The notes below the pieces were generated by a model. It was not told the DNA's origin and made no database searches. It worked only from the letters and a program-made list of their open reading frames with translations. A DNA stretch of 64,000 nucleotides, taken from contig OX597826.1 in assembly GCA_951406725.2 (NCBI GenBank), positions 9,114,001 through 9,178,000 on the forward strand. Direction: 5' to 3'. Positions 39,574-55,910 of this stretch are shown piece by piece (the stretch's first letter is position 1; every line of letters starts with the position of its first letter). A program made the position numbers and the translations under genes. The DNA comes from Octopus vulgaris. Lineage: Eukaryota.

Positions 39574-40680
39574 ACATGACAAGAAATACTACCCATTTTG
39601 TAAACCAAACAAATCTGTCTCATACATCAATGTCTCCTCCAATCATCCAAAATCTATTATTGATAACATCGTTAGCGCTATCTTGATCAGAATCTCTAAC
39701 TTTTCCACAAGCGAAGAGATTTTTGATCAACATGCACTGGTATACATACAACAATGCTCTAAAATTAAGCAGCTTCAAAACTAAAATCTCATACATACCT
39801 AACACAAGATTTAAGAACAAAATGGCTGGTCTCCCACCTGACCATGTCACAGAAAGTCAAGAGAAATGCAATGCAATATTTGATTGCAACCAATGTAAGC
39901 CATCAGTTAGATACGTATATAAAGATGTTAGGAATAGATACTGGAAGCAAAATAGTGGCAGTGAGGAGATGAGTAAAACCAAGAGTTCACATTCTAGAAT
40001 ACGGGAAGTCATATGGCTTGTCCTCACTTTTTCTCTTAGAGTAAGAAATTTGCCCAAGTTGTTTTTTAAGATTCTGAAGGAGAATTTCCCAAAGAATCAT
40101 AAATACTACAGAATCTGCAATAAATCCTTCAGCAAATTTTTTATTTGGTAATGCCGAACTTGGCCTCCATTATTGCATCTATTAACAGGAGCAAATTAAA
40201 TGGGAAAGTGCATTGGAAGCGTTCCTATGTTGGAAACCCTGGTATTAGGTAGGTAAACTCTAATAAGCTTCAGGTTAGTGTTACAAACCATTTACTTCTA
40301 CTGGCGTTATCGGCCTTCTGTAAGAGATATCTGAAGGGAAGAGTGCTGGAAGCCAGATAAGTAATGTTAGTATTAGTAATAGAGATATGGGTGGTTCTAG
40401 TAAATCCTGTAATTGTAGAAACCCTGGATTATGTCTCCTTGACAGATTTTGTCTGACTAGTAATGCTATATATAAATGTGTTGTTAAAGAGGAGGGTAAT
40501 TTGGATAGGTTTTACATAGGCAGTACTGTCAATTTTAAGGCGAGGGATAGGACCCACATGAATTTGTTTGCGAACAAAAAATATTGTAACTCCACTACTC
40601 TTGCCTCTTATATACATGGTTTAAAGAGGAATAAAAAAAGTTACTCTTGAATGGTCTGTTATCTCGAGGGCCCTTTATTT
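39570..40680 (+). mobile_element. Penelope-like retroelement fragment (RT C-terminus, Cys linker, GIY-YIG endonuclease), Neptune-like
   Basis: YYPFCKPN..YINVSSNHPKSII..RISNFSTSEEIF..YNNALKLSSF; then CNCRNPGLCLLDRFCLTSNAIYKC..FYIGSTVNFKAR..H..STTLASYIH. Frameshifted. Confidence 0.9.
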
Positions 40681-48735: not shown

Positions 48736-49136
48736 AGATCTATTTTTTTGTGTATGTATGAATGCGTGTGTGTGTGTGTACATTTGTGCATGTGTATATG
48801 TGTTTATGTATGCATGTGTGTATGTGTGTATCTGCATTTGTTTACATCTGTGTTTGTTTACATCTGCAACTTCGTGTTTTTGTCAGTTTGCGCTGTCAGC
48901 AAATCGCCTCATTCCTTCGTACCTTCAAAGCCGTGTAGAATATGCAATCGCTTATTTGGAAAACAAGTAAAAGTTAGCATCAGAAAAGCATTTGGCTGTA
49001 AAACAATGCTTCAGATAACTTGTTTGTCCAAACTATGAAATCCTAGAAAAACAGACATAAAAGGGATGCACAAATATGTGTATAAATATGTGTGTGCATA
49101 CATTTGCATATATGTGTGTGTATCTGGGTGGGTGTG

Positions 49137-49215
<79 letters not shown>

Positions 49216-49555
49216 ATTTATATATATAATCCTCTTAATATCCACATTTCCAGCTTCCTGGATACCCTTCTTGTCACCAGCTCTCACTTGTTGCCAAGCA
49301 AGGTAATGTTTCCCTTGGAAATGACACTGCTTTTAAGACTGTCACTCATTTACAAGTGGTACATGATGTTAAGAGACAGGAAAACATCCCCCTCCCCCAC
49401 ACACACATGACAGGCTTCTTTCAGTTTCCAACCACCAAATCCACTGGCAAGGATTTGACAACGGCTATATTCTGCAAGAAACTTGCCCTGTGTGTTATAC
49501 TGTAGGGTTGAATCCAAATAGTTGGGAAGCAAGCATCTTAACCACACAATATATA

Positions 49556-50186
49556 CAGTGACCCACAAAAGTGTACAACACACAGTCAAAAATCCAAGTT
49601 TTGCATATACTGAATTAATGTAAATTAATGAAATTTCCACCATATATGAAGTTTTTTGTAACGAATCCAATGCAAAAATCAGAATTTCATAATAATGAAC
49701 AGAACAAATTTTGGATTTTTTCGGTTTGAATGGCAGTTTTTTCTAGCGGTGTCATATGAAACTGTCACCCATAATTATGACCCTAGTATCGACCTACTGC
49801 ATTTCAATCTGTGTTAGGGTTAGTGATGGGGGGAAGGGTATCTTTTTTTCTTCAGAAATGTAAATAAACCCAATCTGTTTCTTAAATGAGGGACATATTC
49901 ATATGGCACAGAATGTTTTTAACCTCAATAGACGTCATTGATTGGTTGAAATTGCAGAAATTGAAGAAAGACAACAACAAATATCTTACAAACTATAGAA
50001 TTTTCTCAATAAAGCCAAGAGAAAAAGATGTTTTATAAACACATTCTACCAGTATACGAAGTTTAAAAGTCTTTAGTTACGTGGAAATTATTTTTTAAAA
50101 CTGCCGTTCAAACCGAAAAGATCCCAAATTTTATATGGCAAAAAGTTGAAATTCAAAATGCAAAAGTTTACAACACACTTAACTCA
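49556..50186. mobile_element. Tc1-like IR/DR terminal fragment interrupted by a MITE
   Basis: TA-CAGTGACCCACAAAAGT terminus, with direct repeats caaaagt(g/t)tacaacacac at 49566-49583 and 50161-50178. Confidence 0.65.
49713..50124. mobile_element. 412-bp MITE with ~28-bp TIRs and 8-bp TSD (Merlin-like termini)
   Basis: TIR GGAT(T/C)TTTTCGGTTTGAA(T/C)GGCAGTTT; TSD CAAATTTT at 49705-49712 and 50125-50132. Confidence 0.85.
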
Positions 50187-50393
50187 ATTGATATCAAAAT
50201 TTATTCATCACCATGAGGCGAACACAAGCAATGTTTTCCTTTTGAAGTCTTCTTTAAACTGTCAGTTGTCAGTTTAGCTGGAAAATAACAATGCAGTTAT
50301 TAATAAGTAGAACAGAAATTAATGCCTGCAAGATTTCACAGCCCTAGCATCACTCCTTCATAGTTAGCCTATGAGCTTTTCAGCCCACCCACA
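50187..50393 (-). mobile_element. Mariner left end (internally deleted), inverted copy of 54744-54950
   Basis: Reverse complement aligns over ~205 bp with 54744-54950. Confidence 0.85.
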
Positions 50394-50424
50394 TATATGT
50401 ATACACACATATATATATATATAT

Positions 50425-50672
50425 ATAAAATTCGTTAATTTTAATGATTCTATCCTTTAATTATGTTTAAATATATATACATACATATATATATATATAT
50501 ATAATATAAATAAATATATTCAAGTGGAAAAAATTTACAGATTTTTTCTCTTATGAGGTTTCTCACGCTAACTACTTGATAATTTCTTATGAAGATTTTA
50601 TCCTATTTTAAAATTATATATATATATATTTAAGCATAATTAAAGGATAGAATCAAAATTAGTGAATTTTAT
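50425..50672. repeat. Inverted repeat with ~52-bp arms, probably Penelope pLTR ends
   Basis: ataaaattc..aatttt..gattctatcctttaattatg.ttaaatatatata (50425-50479) versus its reverse complement at 50621-50672. Confidence 0.7.
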
Positions 50673-50877
50673 CAGTGGCCGGCATATAAAAAATAAAACC
50701 TTTTAGGTAAAATACATGTATAAAATATATATTTGTATAGGTTATAATTATAATTAAGGGCACAGAAGTTACCATTCTTATATGCTGAAAATAGACATCA
50801 AATATGTCCAGCCATTGCAGATCTTCATTTCACATATACACATGTTGAAAGTCGGAAAGCGGACTGACTAAAAATTC

Positions 50878-51233
50878 ACTAGCCCATGAAAAGTGTGGAT
50901 GCATACTAACAATATTCTTAACAATTAAACCTGGAAAAGCAGAGAACAAGAAAAAACTCATTAAAATTAGAGCTTAAAATACTGCTGCTAAAATTAAAAT
51001 TAAAAAGTACCTCTTAGGTACTTTTTCATATTCTTTTAAAAAATTCAATTAATTTCATTTTTCCCTTATTTTAACTTTATTTTTTTGTACTAAATGAATT
51101 AATAAAAAAAATATTAATTTTTGCAGCAATATTTTAAGCTCTAATTTTAATGAGTTTTTTCTTGCCCTCTGCTTTTCCAGGTTTAATTGTTAAGAATATT
51201 GTTAGTATATGTCCGCATTTTTCATTGGCTAGT
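50878..51233. repeat. Long fold-back: 120-bp arms, 116-bp spacer
   Basis: 50878-50997 versus rc of 51114-51233, about 10 mismatches by manual count. Confidence 0.92.
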
Positions 51234-51407
51234 CCAGTGTTTTTACAGGTATCGCTGTAATAGTAAAATTTTAATTAAAAATATATAAAATTACCATTTT
51301 TTTGTAGTCATTTTGAATTCAAAAATTTCCAAGAAAATTCAAACAAAATTTTGGTTTTTTCATTTGACTAATTCTCATTTAGAAATTAAATAAAAAATGA
51401 ATGATAA

Positions 51408-51864
51408 TCATTGCAACTTTGCCTTTTCTGGACATAATGTACGTACTGTCATTTCAGTACTTTACAGAGACAAAGTTACAAATGAATATATTTAAAGAAT
51501 TTTTAAAATAATGAAAAAAAAATGAGGATACAAATTTAATAAAATGACTATGTTAAATAAATTAAATTAAACTAAATTAATATTGAATAGAATATAATTA
51601 CAAGTAGCATTTGCCTTTTCTGAACAGCCTTACTACAAACTTCAGCACTGCTCATAGAGACAAAGCCACAAATAATCATATTCTGTTTACTATAAAATTA
51701 ATAAATAAATTATAAATAGTAATTTTTAGCATGCAAATAAACTCCATGTTTGAAAATTTAAAAATAGTGAAAATTGACTGTTAAAATATTTGAATTTTTG
51801 CCATTTGCCTTTTTCTGAACAGCCCTACTACATGATTCAGTAATGCTCATAGAGACAAAATAAA
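51408..51864 (-). ncRNA. Array of three related RNA hairpins (pre-miRNA-cluster-like)
   Basis: Copies at 51408-51485, 51604-51669 and ~51797-51864. Conserved UUUGUCUCU..CUGAA..CAGAAAAGGCAAA on the minus strand. Plus-strand C/A mismatches become G-U pairs on the minus strand. Confidence 0.5.
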
Positions 51865-52639
51865 AAAAAAAAAGAAATTTATTAAATAATTTTGTTATTA
51901 AAATAATTCATTAAAAAATGGACTTTTAAAAAGCCATATTACAAAAAATTAAGCAAAAGAAATTTAATTTTTTATAAAAAAATAATTTAGACTAATGAAA
52001 ATAAATATTAGAACTCTTTGTATTGATTTGTGTTGTCTTTTATCTTTTATTGTGTTTACGTGCCTAAGAAATAGCTTAGTTCATATATGAGTAGTGTCCC
52101 TTTAATATCATGCAAAAATTGATAAAAATTTGAGAATCAAAATTAAATATCTTTTTTTTCTAATGGATAAAATTTTTATGAAATCTTTACTAATATATTC
52201 CTTTAACATTTCTCTTTTATATTAATATCAATATAATAACTCTTAATCAAAATTAAAAGACTGGTGTGGATTCAAAGTGTCGATGTCGAGTGTTACTACC
52301 CGTCAGTCAACCAGTTTGGTCTATACATTTTTTCTCTTAACTTTTGTTCTACTGCAACAGATTTTAAGTATTTATGTCTAAATGTAGCTTAACACTAGTC
52401 AAACATAATGAAAAAGCTAAATTTGATTTCGATTAAAACTGAATTAGTGAGACTGCTTGGAAGATGCTGACTGCGGCAAAAAAGCTACGTTAAGAATATT
52501 ATTCAACTCCTACCATTGTTGAATGATAGAATAATTCTTAAAACTATCTGAATTATGTATACACTTCAGCAATGTAACTACACTCATGCTGTTGGTGATT
52601 TTTTTTTTTCCTTTTTCGGATTTTCCCCTTTTACTTTCA

Positions 52640-53910
52640 GTGTTCCAAATTATTAATGAGTGGTCCGATAACTGTGTAATTATGGGTTGTGAATGTTACT
52701 TAACTACTTCAGAGAAATTTGTTATTACTTCTGAGCTTTTGAAAGGTAAATCAGTGTTAGAAATATCTAGAATAATTGAAAGATATCACTAAACTGTGAA
52801 AAAGTTTGTAACAGCTCCTATGACGATATGTAAGAGAGCTGAAAAGGGTCAGTTGAGGGCTGTTTCTTAATGTTCTCTGTCACAAATTAGGCATGAAGCA
52901 GTAAGGAATCCAGGTCTTTTCAAGCACACTGGCAAAACAACTGTGTCCAGAACTACCCAATGTTGTCTTCTGAAAAAGATTGGTAAACCAGTGACATCAA
53001 TTAAAAGGCCTCTTTTAAACAAAATACGCATACAAAAATCATCTGAAATACGCAGAAGATAACATGAAGGTTGACTTTTCAAAAGTTTTGTTTACAGATG
53101 AAACTTTTGCTACCCTTGATGGACCCAATGCTTGGAGCAAGATATGGATTGTAAATAGACGGGATTGTCATCAATGCTTGAGATGCCAACAAGAGGGGAG
53201 GAGGCATCATGATTTAGGAAGGTATTGTTGGAGGTATCAGGGTTGGTTCTAGGAAAGTGCCTGATGGTGCTAAAATGGCTGCAGATGCTTACATAGCTCT
53301 TTCTATAGTAATTCTGACTTTACCATCATACTCTTGCCTCTTTCACCAACCTTCAAGACAACTATAGCATTCATGCAGGACAATGCACCCTCACACTCAG
53401 TGAAGGAAACTACAAAGTATCTGCAACAATTAGGCCTCTATGGACCTCTAAAGATGCAGTGGCCTGCCTGTACTCCTGACCCAATAGACATCTTGTGGAG
53501 TATTCTAAAGCGATGAGACTGGATGCCACTTTAGGAGCAAGGATGAACTGTGGCAGGCAATAGTGGATGTATCCTGTGATCATCAGAGGAGATCCAGAAA
53601 TTAGCATGTTCTATGGACCAGTATTTTTTCCAACTTATTTCAAACAAACACTCATATATTCCTTACTAACCAGCTCGCCTATCATTTTTGAACACTGTTT
53701 GTTTGTTTATTTCTATTTCTTCCATGTTTATGACTGTATGTGTTCATTTCAGTATGTACATCAGACAATTAAACTGGTATTTTCTTGATTACATGAGTTT
53801 TAATTACACTTCATTAATAATTTGAATCTGTGAAAGTTTATGTAAATTTGGTAAATGGCCGTAATTTCTGTGTTGTTTTACAGAACCTAACATCTTTTAC
53901 ACACCATATA
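52640..53910 (+). mobile_element. Decayed Tc1-like transposon
   Basis: HTH (ELLKGKSVLEISRIIER), DFSKVLFTDETFATLDGP, FMQDNAPSH, WPACTPD..LWSILKR. Ends are uncertain and may begin near 52260. Confidence 0.85.
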
Positions 53911-54019
53911 CATAGAGCTCTTGCCATCATTCTGTGAAAATTTCACTGGATTCTAACAAGTAGTTTAAAAAAAGAATGTTACATTGTTAATAATTTGAAA
54001 CGCTGTGTATGTGTATGTG

Positions 54020-54074
<55 letters not shown>

Positions 54075-54076
<2 letters not shown>

Positions 54077-54447
54077 CATCATCATCATCATCCGTTTTCC
54101 ATGCTAGCATGGGTTGGACGGTTCGACCGGGGTCTGGTAAGCCATGGAGGCTGCACCAGGCTCTAGTCTGATTTGACAATGTTTCTACAGCTGGATGTTT
54201 TTCCTAACGCCAACCACTCTGTGAGTGTAGTGGGTGGTTTTTTACGTGCCACCTACACAGGGGCCAGAGCAGGCTGGCAAATGGCCTCGATTGGTTGGTG
54301 CTTTTACGTGTCATCGACACGAACGACAGTCAGGCGGCGCTAGTTCAGATGGTGCTTTTTACGTGCCACCAGTACGGGTGTCTTAACTACATTTTCCATT
54401 TGAATTTTTATTTTGATGTTGACGTACTTGACTCAACAGGTCTCCTC
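54075..54447 (-). mobile_element. SINE family B
   Basis: catcatcatccgttttccatgctagcatgggttggacggttcgaccgggg. Confidence 0.8.
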
Positions 54448-54450
54448 ATA

Positions 54451-54482
<32 letters not shown>

Positions 54483-54484
54483 GA

Positions 54485-54680
54485 GTCAAATCAAATAAAC
54501 GAACAATAAAATTAACAATAACAAACAACAAGAGGACATGCACAAGGAATGAATTAGTTTGACACTCAGTGAAACGAGCGTATTTGATGTTCCGAACATA
54601 GCTCTTCATTGGAAAAGAAAAGGGTAAAGCCCAAAGAAGGAAAAAAATCTCCAACAGCATATGTGTAGTTACATTGCTGA
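54485..54680 (-). mobile_element. Penelope-like terminal repeat relic with a decayed hammerhead (54583-54618)
   Basis: rc ttttCCAATGAaGAGCtatGTTCGGAACatcaaa has the same architecture as 12076, with a mutated core. Confidence 0.4.
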
Positions 54681-54684
54681 AGTA

Positions 54685-54732
<48 letters not shown>

Positions 54733-54743
54733 GTACACACATA

Positions 54744-55910
54744 TGTAGGTGGGCTGAAAAGTTCATGGGGGTAACTATGAAGGAGTGATGCTAGGGCTGT
54801 GAAATTTTGCATGCATTAATTTCTGTTCTACTTATTAATAACTGCATTGTTATTTTCCAGCTAAACTGACATCTGACAGTTCAAAGAAGACTTCAAGGAG
54901 AAAACATTGGTTGTGTTTCATGGCATGATAATGAATAACTTTTGATTGACTATAAATCAAATTAGCCAATGCTATTAGCATATCTCATAAGAGTTGAGAA
55001 TATTCAGCACAATGGACTTGGCATGGTGGAGGCACATGGCCTAGTGGTTAGAGCAGTGGACATGCGGCGAGGGATCACCGGTTCAAATCTCAGACCAGGC
55101 GATGTGTGTGTTTATGAGTGAAAACAGCTAAGCTCCACACAGCTCCGGCAGAAGGTAACGGCGAACTTCTACTGACTCTTTCGCCACAACTTTCTCTCAC
55201 TCTTTCTTCCTGCTTTCTTGCAGCTCACCTGCGACGGACTGGCGTCCTGTCCAGGTGGGGAACCTATATGCCAAGAAACCCGGAAACCGGCCCTTATGAG
55301 CCAGGCAGGGCTCGAGAAGGAACAAACAAACAAATAAAACTTGGCATGAGAAAGGCTTCTGCTCGGTGGGTGCCACATCTTCTGACACCAAGGTTGATCA
55401 CATCACGGGGGAAAAATCTGATATGGTTTGAAGCAGACCCAGCTAGTTTCCTTGAATGTTTCATAACCCAGGATGATTGTTGGGTTTATCACTTTGAGCC
55501 AGAGACAAAGAGACTACCAATGCAGCAGAAACACCCTGCCTCACCTGCTCCAAAAAAGGCCAAGGTTGTTTCATTTTCAGGCAAGTTGATGGCCTCAGTT
55601 TTTTTGTGAAGCAAAAGGCATTGTATTTATCTTCAAAGATTCCATACCATCAATAGAGAGTATTTTGTCAACTTGCTGAGGCAGTTACAAAAGTTTATGA
55701 AGAAGAAATGCCCAGAAAAACTGATGGAAGAAGTCTTGTGTCATCAGGACAATACTCCAGCACACAAGCTGTTGGTTTCGCTGGCTGTTGTGCGTGACTG
55801 TGGCTTTGAACTAGTTGATCACCCTCCCTATTCTCCTGATTTGGCCCCATCTGACTAACACCTGTTCCCTGACATGAAAAAACATTTGGCTGAGAAGCAG
55901 TATCGCAGCC
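54744..55910 (+). mobile_element. Internally deleted mariner (DD34D) interrupted by a SINE
   Basis: LGMRKASARWVPHLLT, ITQDDCWVYHFEPETK, HQDNTPAH, HPPYSPDLAPSD. Ends gtaggtgggctg and cagcctacccca-TA. Confidence 0.9.
55026..55338 (+). mobile_element. Young tRNA-derived SINE (family F) with (AAAC)n tail and 10-bp TSD
   Basis: A box tggcctagtgg, B box ggttcaaatc; TSD ACTTGGCATG at 55016-55025 and 55339-55348. Confidence 0.9.

What the first reader, a model, noticed from the sequence alone, without database searches (positions are those of the whole stretch)
51408..51864. Regularly spaced array of three strand-specific RNA hairpins with unalignable AT-rich spacers
Seen: a ~60-nt core recurs at 192 and 194 bp intervals (tttgcc at 51418, 51610, 51804), while the ~120-bp spacers are very AT-rich and barely alignable, unlike ordinary tandem repeats. 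On the minus strand each folds into a long stem. Copy 2 is GUGGC-UUUGUCU-cua-UGAGCAGU-GCUG-aaguuug-UAGU-aag-GCUGUUCA-gaaa-AGGCAAA-u-GCUAC. The outer and apical stems differ in sequence between copies yet still pair (copy 1: UUGUAACUUUGUCU/AGGCAAAGUUGCAA and GUACUG/CAGUAC). Several positions are G-U only on the minus strand, which argues for selection on an RNA rather than a DNA palindrome. The 5' arm start UUUGUCUCU is invariant, like a shared seed. Known: animal miRNA clusters have this layout, and coleoids gained many novel miRNA families. Inference: a lineage-specific miRNA cluster or another structured RNA array, antisense to the putative host gene. I do not recognise the family.
Basis: partly seen in the sequence, partly recalled or inferred. 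Interest (0 to 1): 0.8.

Follow-up and report, generated by a model that had tools for sequence, protein, structure and literature searches.

The report
Transposon carrying conserved microRNA-like hairpins
The three hairpins are not a host microRNA cluster at this site but the inner part of a decaying copy of a dispersed, likely rolling-circle (Helitron2-type) transposon, whose sister families keep the hairpin almost unchanged while everything around it has diverged, which suggests the transposon's ancestor used it as RNA, possibly as its own microRNA.

Summary
The repeats are at the stated coordinates. Copies 1 and 2 fold significantly on the minus strand; copy 3 does not.

Hairpins and spacers together lie inside a 1.65-kb dispersed element (50879-52526).

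The ends fit a non-autonomous Helitron2/Helentron (HLE2): an 11-bp asymmetric inverted repeat, a terminal palindrome and TA-rich targets. Longer relatives carry a decayed UCH-like gene whose homologues follow a PIF1 helicase. No autonomous partner was found.

Four families share the hairpin. Between F1 and F2 the 51-nt cores of hairpins 2 and 3 are 94% and 100% identical, the termini about 65%, and the spacers do not align. Six of eight family hairpins have 34-45 bp stems that fold on the transposase-sense strand. Many complete copies lack the hairpins (0 of 22), so they are not needed to move.

Best reading: an RNA module of the parent transposon, most likely a small-RNA precursor (untested), probably inert here.

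The parts
50879..52526 (-). Non-autonomous transposon copy, family F1 (1.65 kb); minus = sense of the UCH-like gene in longer relatives
   Evidence: Ends fixed by many dispersed copies; window copy equals family majority at 1572 of 1650 positions
52501..52524 (.). Terminal palindrome (5' end in gene sense); partly decayed in this copy
   Evidence: Same position in F1-F4 with compensated stems: ACTAC/GTAGT in 14, ACCAC/GTGGT in 4, CACAC/GTGTG in 2 of 57 ends; TA follows in 46 of 57
52490..52500 (+). Asymmetric subterminal inverted repeat TTAAGAATATT next to the palindrome
   Evidence: same motif in all four families
50911..50921 (+). Partner inverted repeat AATATTCTTAA, 32 nt inside the other terminus
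50878..51001 (.). Outer arm of a 124-bp inverted repeat (terminus of the element)
   Evidence: 91% complementary to 51110-51233; F2-F4 have an equivalent with different sequence
51110..51233 (.). Inner arm of the long inverted repeat, holding a third copy of the 11-bp motif at 51190
51402..51496 (-). Hairpin 1 (divergent paralogue, branched top, folds on both strands)
51585..51686 (-). Hairpin 2, long strand-specific stem-loop
   Evidence: -38.9 kcal/mol over 51580-51695; z -3.9; model score 87 bits
51786..51881 (-). Hairpin 3, core intact but basal stem decayed in this copy
   Evidence: not significant here; family majority z -3.1; 51-nt core identical to F2 hairpin 3

Best explanation
The hairpins are the inner cargo of a dispersed non-autonomous transposon, likely a Helitron2-type (HLE2) rolling-circle element, and were likely kept by selection in its parent as RNA stem-loops predicted to be cut into small RNAs, while this genomic copy is drifting. 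Shown: dispersed copies with fixed ends; four families with the same layout; hairpin cores far more conserved between families than termini or spacers; folding on one strand; complete copies without any hairpin; in one longer F4 copy the hairpin lies about 350 nt after the stop codon of a UCH-like gene on the same strand. Inferred: a RepHel-UCH transposase acted on the palindrome and inverted repeats and moved these copies in trans; the parent's transcript ran through the gene into the hairpins; Drosha/Dicer would process the 34-45 bp stems into a trans-acting miRNA-like product, as rice miR820 is made from CACTA elements. Odds by step: transposon cargo 0.95, HLE2 class 0.8, selected as RNA in the parent 0.7, small-RNA precursor rather than another RNA role about half of that.
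For: Dispersal and ends: (194 exact terminal motifs, control 0). Neutral-looking decay: hairpin cores 6.8, 4.9 and 8.4% from majority against 6.4-8.3% in spacers (hairpin 2 was the query, so its value is biased low). Between F1 and F2: cores of hairpins 2 and 3 are 94% and 100% identical, the palindrome-end region 65%, spacers unaligned. Majority hairpins fold at z -3.1 to -6.4 as RNA on the sense strand in 6 of 6 F1/F2 types and z -4.3 in F3. G-U oppositions outnumber A-C 46 to 20 over 8 types (nominal p 0.002, types are related). Lower-stem pair 28/84 reads UA, GU or GC by family. 6 of 8 types have 34-45 bp, 97-115 nt, loops of 7-14 nt. Dispensable in cis: 1 of 40 loci picked by the terminal motif had hairpins and 0 of 22 with both ends did. 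Class: UCH-like fragment inside the element, 21 matches in the genome; homologues at 27-36% identity directly follow a PIF1-type helicase in L336/L337/L338; UCH is reported almost exclusively in HLE2 (PMC11417382, passages).
Against: No small-RNA data were available; processing is untested. The F4 majority keeps the core sequence (71-82%) but does not fold significantly (z +0.6 and +1.35), and F1 hairpin 1 is branched and not strand-specific. RNAalifold did not recover the hairpin from a 23-row alignment (4 pairs); with my hand-drawn structure the number of pairs with two-sided change was not above shuffles (9 against 7.8, 181 of 500). The loop-flanking motifs are conserved too, which fits a protein-binding element as well as a miRNA. 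All UCH Pfam hits are below the curated cut-off. No Rep domain or intact transposase was linked to these termini: none in 16 HLE1-type loci, the 4 DUF6570 regions fetched or around L336/L337. RNA-seq reads fall on both strands and give no direction.
Confidence: 0.4

Rival explanations
1. Same transposon, but the hairpin is a cis-acting 3' UTR element of the parent's transposase mRNA (protein-binding site for localisation, stability or translation), not a small-RNA source.
For: Lies about 350 nt past the UCH-like stop in L288; short motifs CUGAA, UAGUA and CAGAAAA around loops are kept in 7-8 of 8 types, including F4 where the long basal stem is lost.
Against: Three spaced copies with 34-45 bp stems and compensated basal stems are more than a protein site usually needs (own knowledge); 15 other UCH-match loci showed no hairpin.
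Confidence: 0.25
2. The hairpins work as single-stranded DNA on the displaced strand during rolling-circle transposition (for example a second-strand priming signal).
For: They fold on the gene-sense strand; DNA-parameter z is -1.9 to -4.2 in 5 of 6 types.
Against: 0 of 22 complete copies sampled carry them, so they are not required; DNA folding is weaker than RNA folding in 6 of 6 types and absent in one (z +0.8).
Confidence: 0.1
3. The element captured a real host miRNA cluster with bits of its spliced host transcript; conservation reflects the host locus.
For: Helitrons capture host DNA (PMC4224331, abstract passage); splice-donor-like motifs occur only on the hairpin strand of the F2 majority; one subfamily carries a captured helicase piece.
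Against: No source locus among 155 + 20 hairpin loci inspected (21 matches were not listed and some listed ones were not fetched); families differ in spacers and basal stems as if evolving separately.
Confidence: 0.1
4. No function at any stage: internal repeats of a HINE-like element, kept similar by recent duplication or conversion between families.
For: HINEs often carry central tandem repeats (PMC4067079, PMC7492417, passages); the F3 hairpin is a chimera of F2 hairpins 1 and 2, so recombination between copies occurs.
Against: Only the core is shared, spacers do not align, basal stems differ yet pair, and G-U exceeds A-C 46 to 20.
Confidence: 0.1
5. One reading: a functional host miRNA cluster at this very locus (a domesticated copy).
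For: Hairpin 2 is intact and folds well here.
Against: This copy is as diverged from the majority as others (95.3%), hairpin 3 has lost its basal stem, and octopus novel miRNA families are reported not to co-occur on scaffolds (PMC9699675, passage).
Confidence: 0.04

Closest known systems
Helitron2 / HLE2 (FoHeli of Fusarium; HLE2 subgroups c and d of HELIANO)
   Same: 5' terminal hairpin plus short asymmetric inverted repeat, with the partner repeat about 30 nt from the other end (PMC5148889, passages); UCH domain after the helicase (PMC11417382, passages).
   Different: Insertion in TA repeats rather than T|T; an extra 100-170 bp inverted copy of one terminus; conserved internal RNA hairpins were not mentioned in the passages I read; no autonomous copy found.
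DINE-1 / HINE non-autonomous Helentrons, including oyster Cg_HINE
   Same: Non-coding, subTIR + internal IR + terminal palindrome + central repeats, deletion derivatives outnumbering the parent (PMC4067079, PMC7492417, passages).
   Different: Their IR is short and 1-22 bp from the subTIR and their central repeats are plain tandem units; here only a structured core recurs between unrelated spacers.
Rice miR820 in CACTA transposons
   Same: A DNA transposon carrying its own miRNA hairpin (PMC3459959, abstract): the working analogy.
   Different: miR820 is shown to be expressed and to target OsDRM2; here neither product nor target is known, the host is an animal and the element class differs.
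Clustered animal pri-miRNAs
   Same: About 35-bp imperfect stems, conserved core, AU-rich unalignable spacers (own knowledge).
   Different: Multi-copy and decaying rather than single-copy and conserved; no Rfam family at gathering score; no read evidence.

Membership tests
HLE2 (Helitron2/Helentron) non-autonomous element | Short asymmetric (sub)terminal inverted repeats, about 11-17 bp | tested here: met
   11-bp pair at 50911 and 52490, same in F1-F4
HLE2 (Helitron2/Helentron) non-autonomous element | Terminal palindrome next to one repeat | tested here: met
   52501-52524; compensated between families
HLE2 (Helitron2/Helentron) non-autonomous element | Insertion at T|T (or T-rich) without target duplication | tested here: inconclusive
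   TA follows the palindrome end in 46 of 57 ends; flanks are (TA)n; no empty sites were compared
HLE2 (Helitron2/Helentron) non-autonomous element | Termini shared with an element encoding an HLE2-type RepHel | tested here: inconclusive
   Only a UCH-like fragment lies inside the termini; its homologues follow a PIF1 helicase but those loci show no termini; no Rep domain linked
HLE1 (canonical Helitron) | 5' TC, 3' hairpin plus CTRR, A|T target | tested here: not met
   F1 read on minus fits TC...CTAG but F2, F3 and F4 do not end in CTRR; no match to 16 autonomous HLE1-type loci
Animal miRNA gene | Unbranched stem of about 35 bp with apical loop | tested here: met
   6 of 8 family majorities; in this window hairpin 2 only
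Animal miRNA gene | Expressed 20-26 nt arms with homogeneous 5' ends and 2-nt 3' overhangs | not testable with these tools
   No small-RNA run was offered; mature sequences were not readable in the supplements of PMC9699675
Animal miRNA gene | Locus conserved under selection (single copy, orthologues) | tested here: not met
   Multi-copy; hairpins diverge like spacers among copies; orthologues in other species not examined
SECIS element | RUGA core, AA in apical loop, GA on 3' side at set spacing | tested here: not met
   0 of 8 majorities match; F2H1, F2H2, F3 and F4 lack the UGA
Hammerhead ribozyme (retrozyme / Penelope pLTR) | CUGANGA...GAAA core with three stems | tested here: not met
   0 of 8 contain CUGANGA; no Rfam hit

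The most novel reading that the evidence does not exclude
An animal rolling-circle transposon lineage encodes its own microRNA cluster downstream of its deubiquitinase-bearing transposase gene, a trans-acting weapon against host silencing like rice miR820, and has scattered well over a hundred ready-made precursors through the genome as raw material for new cephalopod miRNA genes.
Probability: 0.25. Interest if true: 0.8.

Novelty: new variant of a known kind. Interest (0 to 1): 0.42.

Why it matters
For annotation, the locus should be masked as a transposon and not called a novel miRNA cluster. The remaining interest is in the element family. A structured RNA module under selection inside an animal Helitron2 lineage did not appear in my searches (listings plus the passages cited). 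If the hairpins yield small RNAs, this would be a transposon-encoded miRNA cassette in an animal and a concrete source for new cephalopod miRNAs, whose origin is stated to be unknown (PMC9699675, passage). It is directly testable with existing small-RNA libraries.

Tried and rejected
Rfam: no hit at gathering score over 49000-55000, the array itself or an F2 copy. SECIS of a Naiad selenoprotein retroelement and hammerhead retrozyme: motifs absent; no reverse transcriptase linked. Canonical HLE1: fits F1 only. A Helitron helicase fragment inside one F1 subfamily (L009/L046) looked like the partner but is antisense to the UCH gene direction and absent from other families, so I read it as captured. 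Autonomous partner hunts failed: 16 regions around Helitron_like_N hits (of 150 listed), 4 DUF6570 regions (7 matches), 40 right-end loci with 8 kb upstream, 12 regions around UCH copies. Protein search for longer relatives of the UCH fragment found none (weak evidence). Patterns found nothing in viral or metagenome contigs. Sequencing runs: no RNA holder listed; laid RNA-seq reads are sparse, come from other copies and fall on both strands, and the main joint equals the DNA deletion form. RNAalifold gave no usable consensus (model R1 unused). Octopus mature miRNA sequences could not be checked: in PMC9699675 supplement 1 was unreadable, supplement 2 was not searched and supplement 3 gave no match; these unseen files may bear on the miRNA question. 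No earlier findings were returned.

Full report
OBSERVATION. Against 500 dinucleotide shuffles, copy 2 folds only on minus (z -3.9 against -0.3), copy 1 on both strands (-4.8 and -2.8), and copy 3 on neither (-0.2, +0.4). Rfam gives no hit at gathering score.

THE BLOCK IS PART OF A DISPERSED ELEMENT. A 90-nt query around hairpin 2 gave 42 matches on 18 contigs from 40 scored of 96 candidates. Matches run through the spacers and out to fixed ends at about 50879 and 52526. The terminal 21-mer occurs exactly 194 times (control 0) and a 22-nt hairpin arm 88 times within one mismatch (control 0). Among F1 copies, divergence from the majority is 6.8, 4.9 and 8.4% in the three cores and 6.4-8.3% in the spacers; hairpin 2 was the query, so its figure is biased low. 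The window copy matches the majority at 1572 of 1650 positions. Paired positions are not consistently better conserved than unpaired ones (differences of -0.015 to +0.027 in agreement).

ANATOMY AND CLASS. One end carries a palindrome (52501-52524) beside TTAAGAATATT (52490). The complement AATATTCTTAA lies 32 nt inside the other end (50911), and a third copy sits in a 124-bp inverted duplicate of that end (51110-51233). TA follows the palindrome end in 46 of 57 ends. The palindrome stem changes with compensation between families. This layout matches Helitron2 termini (PMC5148889, passages) and the subTIR, IR and palindrome of DINE-1/HINE elements (PMC4067079, PMC7492417, passages). F1 alone can be read as TC...CTAG, but F2-F4 do not end in CTRR, so I reject HLE1.

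FOUR FAMILIES. RNA-seq reads that matched hairpin 2 with other flanks led to F2 (three hairpins, spacings about 330 and 480 nt). Pattern searches gave F3 (one hairpin, about 1.9 kb) and F4 (one hairpin). All have the same ends and long inverted repeat. In one long F4 copy (L288/L342) the order on the hairpin strand is palindrome end, a decayed UCH-like reading frame, about 350 nt, hairpin, inner inverted arm. The His-box piece scores Pfam UCH at E 0.0011, below the cut-off. The frame has 21 matches in the genome; in most of the 14 loci examined it sits inside the same termini, and none of the 15 loci other than L288's own showed a hairpin. In L336/L337 more distant homologues (27-36% identity) follow the end of a PIF1-type helicase. 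UCH is reported almost only in HLE2, enriched in subgroups c and d (PMC11417382, passages). So the parent was likely a RepHel-UCH HLE2 transcribed on the window's minus strand. I found no Rep domain or intact transposase within these termini, so the class stays an inference (0.8).

THE HAIRPIN WAS SELECTED IN THE ELEMENT LINEAGE. Between F1 and F2 the 51-nt cores of hairpins 2 and 3 are 94% and 100% identical, the palindrome-end region is 65% identical and the spacers do not align. Majority hairpins fold as RNA on the gene-sense strand at z -3.1 to -6.4 in 6 of 6 F1/F2 types, more weakly on the other strand and as DNA; F3 gives z -4.3 against -0.3. G-U oppositions outnumber A-C 46 to 20 over eight related types. 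On a hand-drawn structure 79% of cells pair against 35-49% when slid, and one lower-stem pair reads UA, GU or GC by family; but the count of pairs with two-sided change is not above shuffles (9 against 7.8), and RNAalifold failed on the same alignment. Six of eight types have 34-45 bp over 97-115 nt with 7-14 nt loops, the geometry of animal pri-miRNAs (own knowledge). The two exceptions count against: F1 hairpin 1 is branched, and F4 keeps the core sequence (71-82%) without significant folding.

IT IS NOT NEEDED TO MOVE. Of 40 loci taken from the first 100 listed terminal-motif matches (contigs C1-C3), 1 had hairpins; 22 had both ends and none of those did. I had skipped five loci already held, four of which carry hairpins (5 of 45 with them added back), and one close neighbour. 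The motif is F1/F2-type, so F3 and F4 are not sampled. The commonest form joins the two ends across the cassette. This argues against a required cis signal and for a role in the parent's transcript. No stand-alone source locus appeared: 0 of 155 hairpin copies lacked element sequence nearby, and 20 more loci were 18 F1-F3, 1 F4 and 1 chance match.

MECHANISM. Shown: transposon cargo, family-level conservation, strand-specific folding, dispensability, position after a UCH-like gene in one copy. Inferred: mobilisation in trans by a RepHel-UCH enzyme; transcription of the parent through the hairpins; processing to small RNAs. I put the small-RNA reading at 0.4, a 3' UTR protein-binding element at 0.25, an ssDNA signal, a captured host cluster and no function at 0.1 each, and a functional host cluster at this locus at 0.04. 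The closest working analogy is rice miR820, a miRNA inside CACTA elements that targets a DNA methyltransferase (PMC3459959, abstract only). SECIS and hammerhead were tested and fail. Expression could not be judged: RNA-seq reads are sparse and on both strands, and octopus mature miRNA sequences were not readable in the supplements of PMC9699675.

VERDICT. The locus is an ordinary decaying transposon copy, not a host miRNA cluster. The family is a new variant of a known kind: an HLE2-like element with a conserved, pri-miRNA-shaped RNA module that my paper searches did not turn up. Interest 0.42; 0.8 if small-RNA reads show processing.

Noticed in passing
L151:8030-8130 (G000:C4, about 100.552 Mb); L027, L038, L041: The terminal palindrome is extended by fold-back copying of about 30 further bases in L151, and its 4-nt loop appears in flipped orientation in some copies, as if the terminal hairpin had primed DNA synthesis.
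   Followed up: partly
window 50878-51001 and 51110-51233; F2-F4 equivalents: The long inverted-repeat arms are about 90% alike within each family but 65-73% between families, so the two arms evolve in concert; no explanation tested.
   Followed up: partly
L009:2346-2885; L046:5432-7435: An F1 subfamily carries about 2 kb of extra DNA with a PIF1 helicase C-terminal fragment (Pif1_2B E 6e-12), antisense to the UCH direction; 47 matches in the genome.
   Followed up: partly
L140:2660-6060 (F2), minus strand: Splice-donor-like motifs occur only on the hairpin strand of the F2 majority (about nine sites, none on the other strand), none in the F1 window copy.
   Followed up: no
window 52558-54688: A decayed Tc1/mariner-like element with 56-bp inverted ends sits 30 bp from the right end of the hairpin element; family assignment is by eye.
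   Followed up: no
window 50221-50369 and 54769-54917: A 149-bp inverted repeat (94%) brackets both elements, suggesting nested insertions in another DNA transposon.
   Followed up: no
window 39687-40650: Fragments resembling a Penelope-like retroelement with a C-terminal GIY-YIG domain (Pfam E 0.02, below cut-off); similar frames in L008, L150, L158.
   Followed up: no
G000, many contigs: The genome holds many Helitron_like_N matches with open frames up to 1744 aa, i.e. young autonomous Helitrons; the 16 regions fetched are unrelated to this element.
   Followed up: partly
G000:C20, 44.00-44.20 Mb: A local cluster of at least six partial F1 copies with hairpin 3, probably a segmental repeat.
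   Followed up: no
L177:5242-5950: The 29-bp subterminal unit of F2 is expanded into a tandem array of about 20 copies.
   Followed up: no
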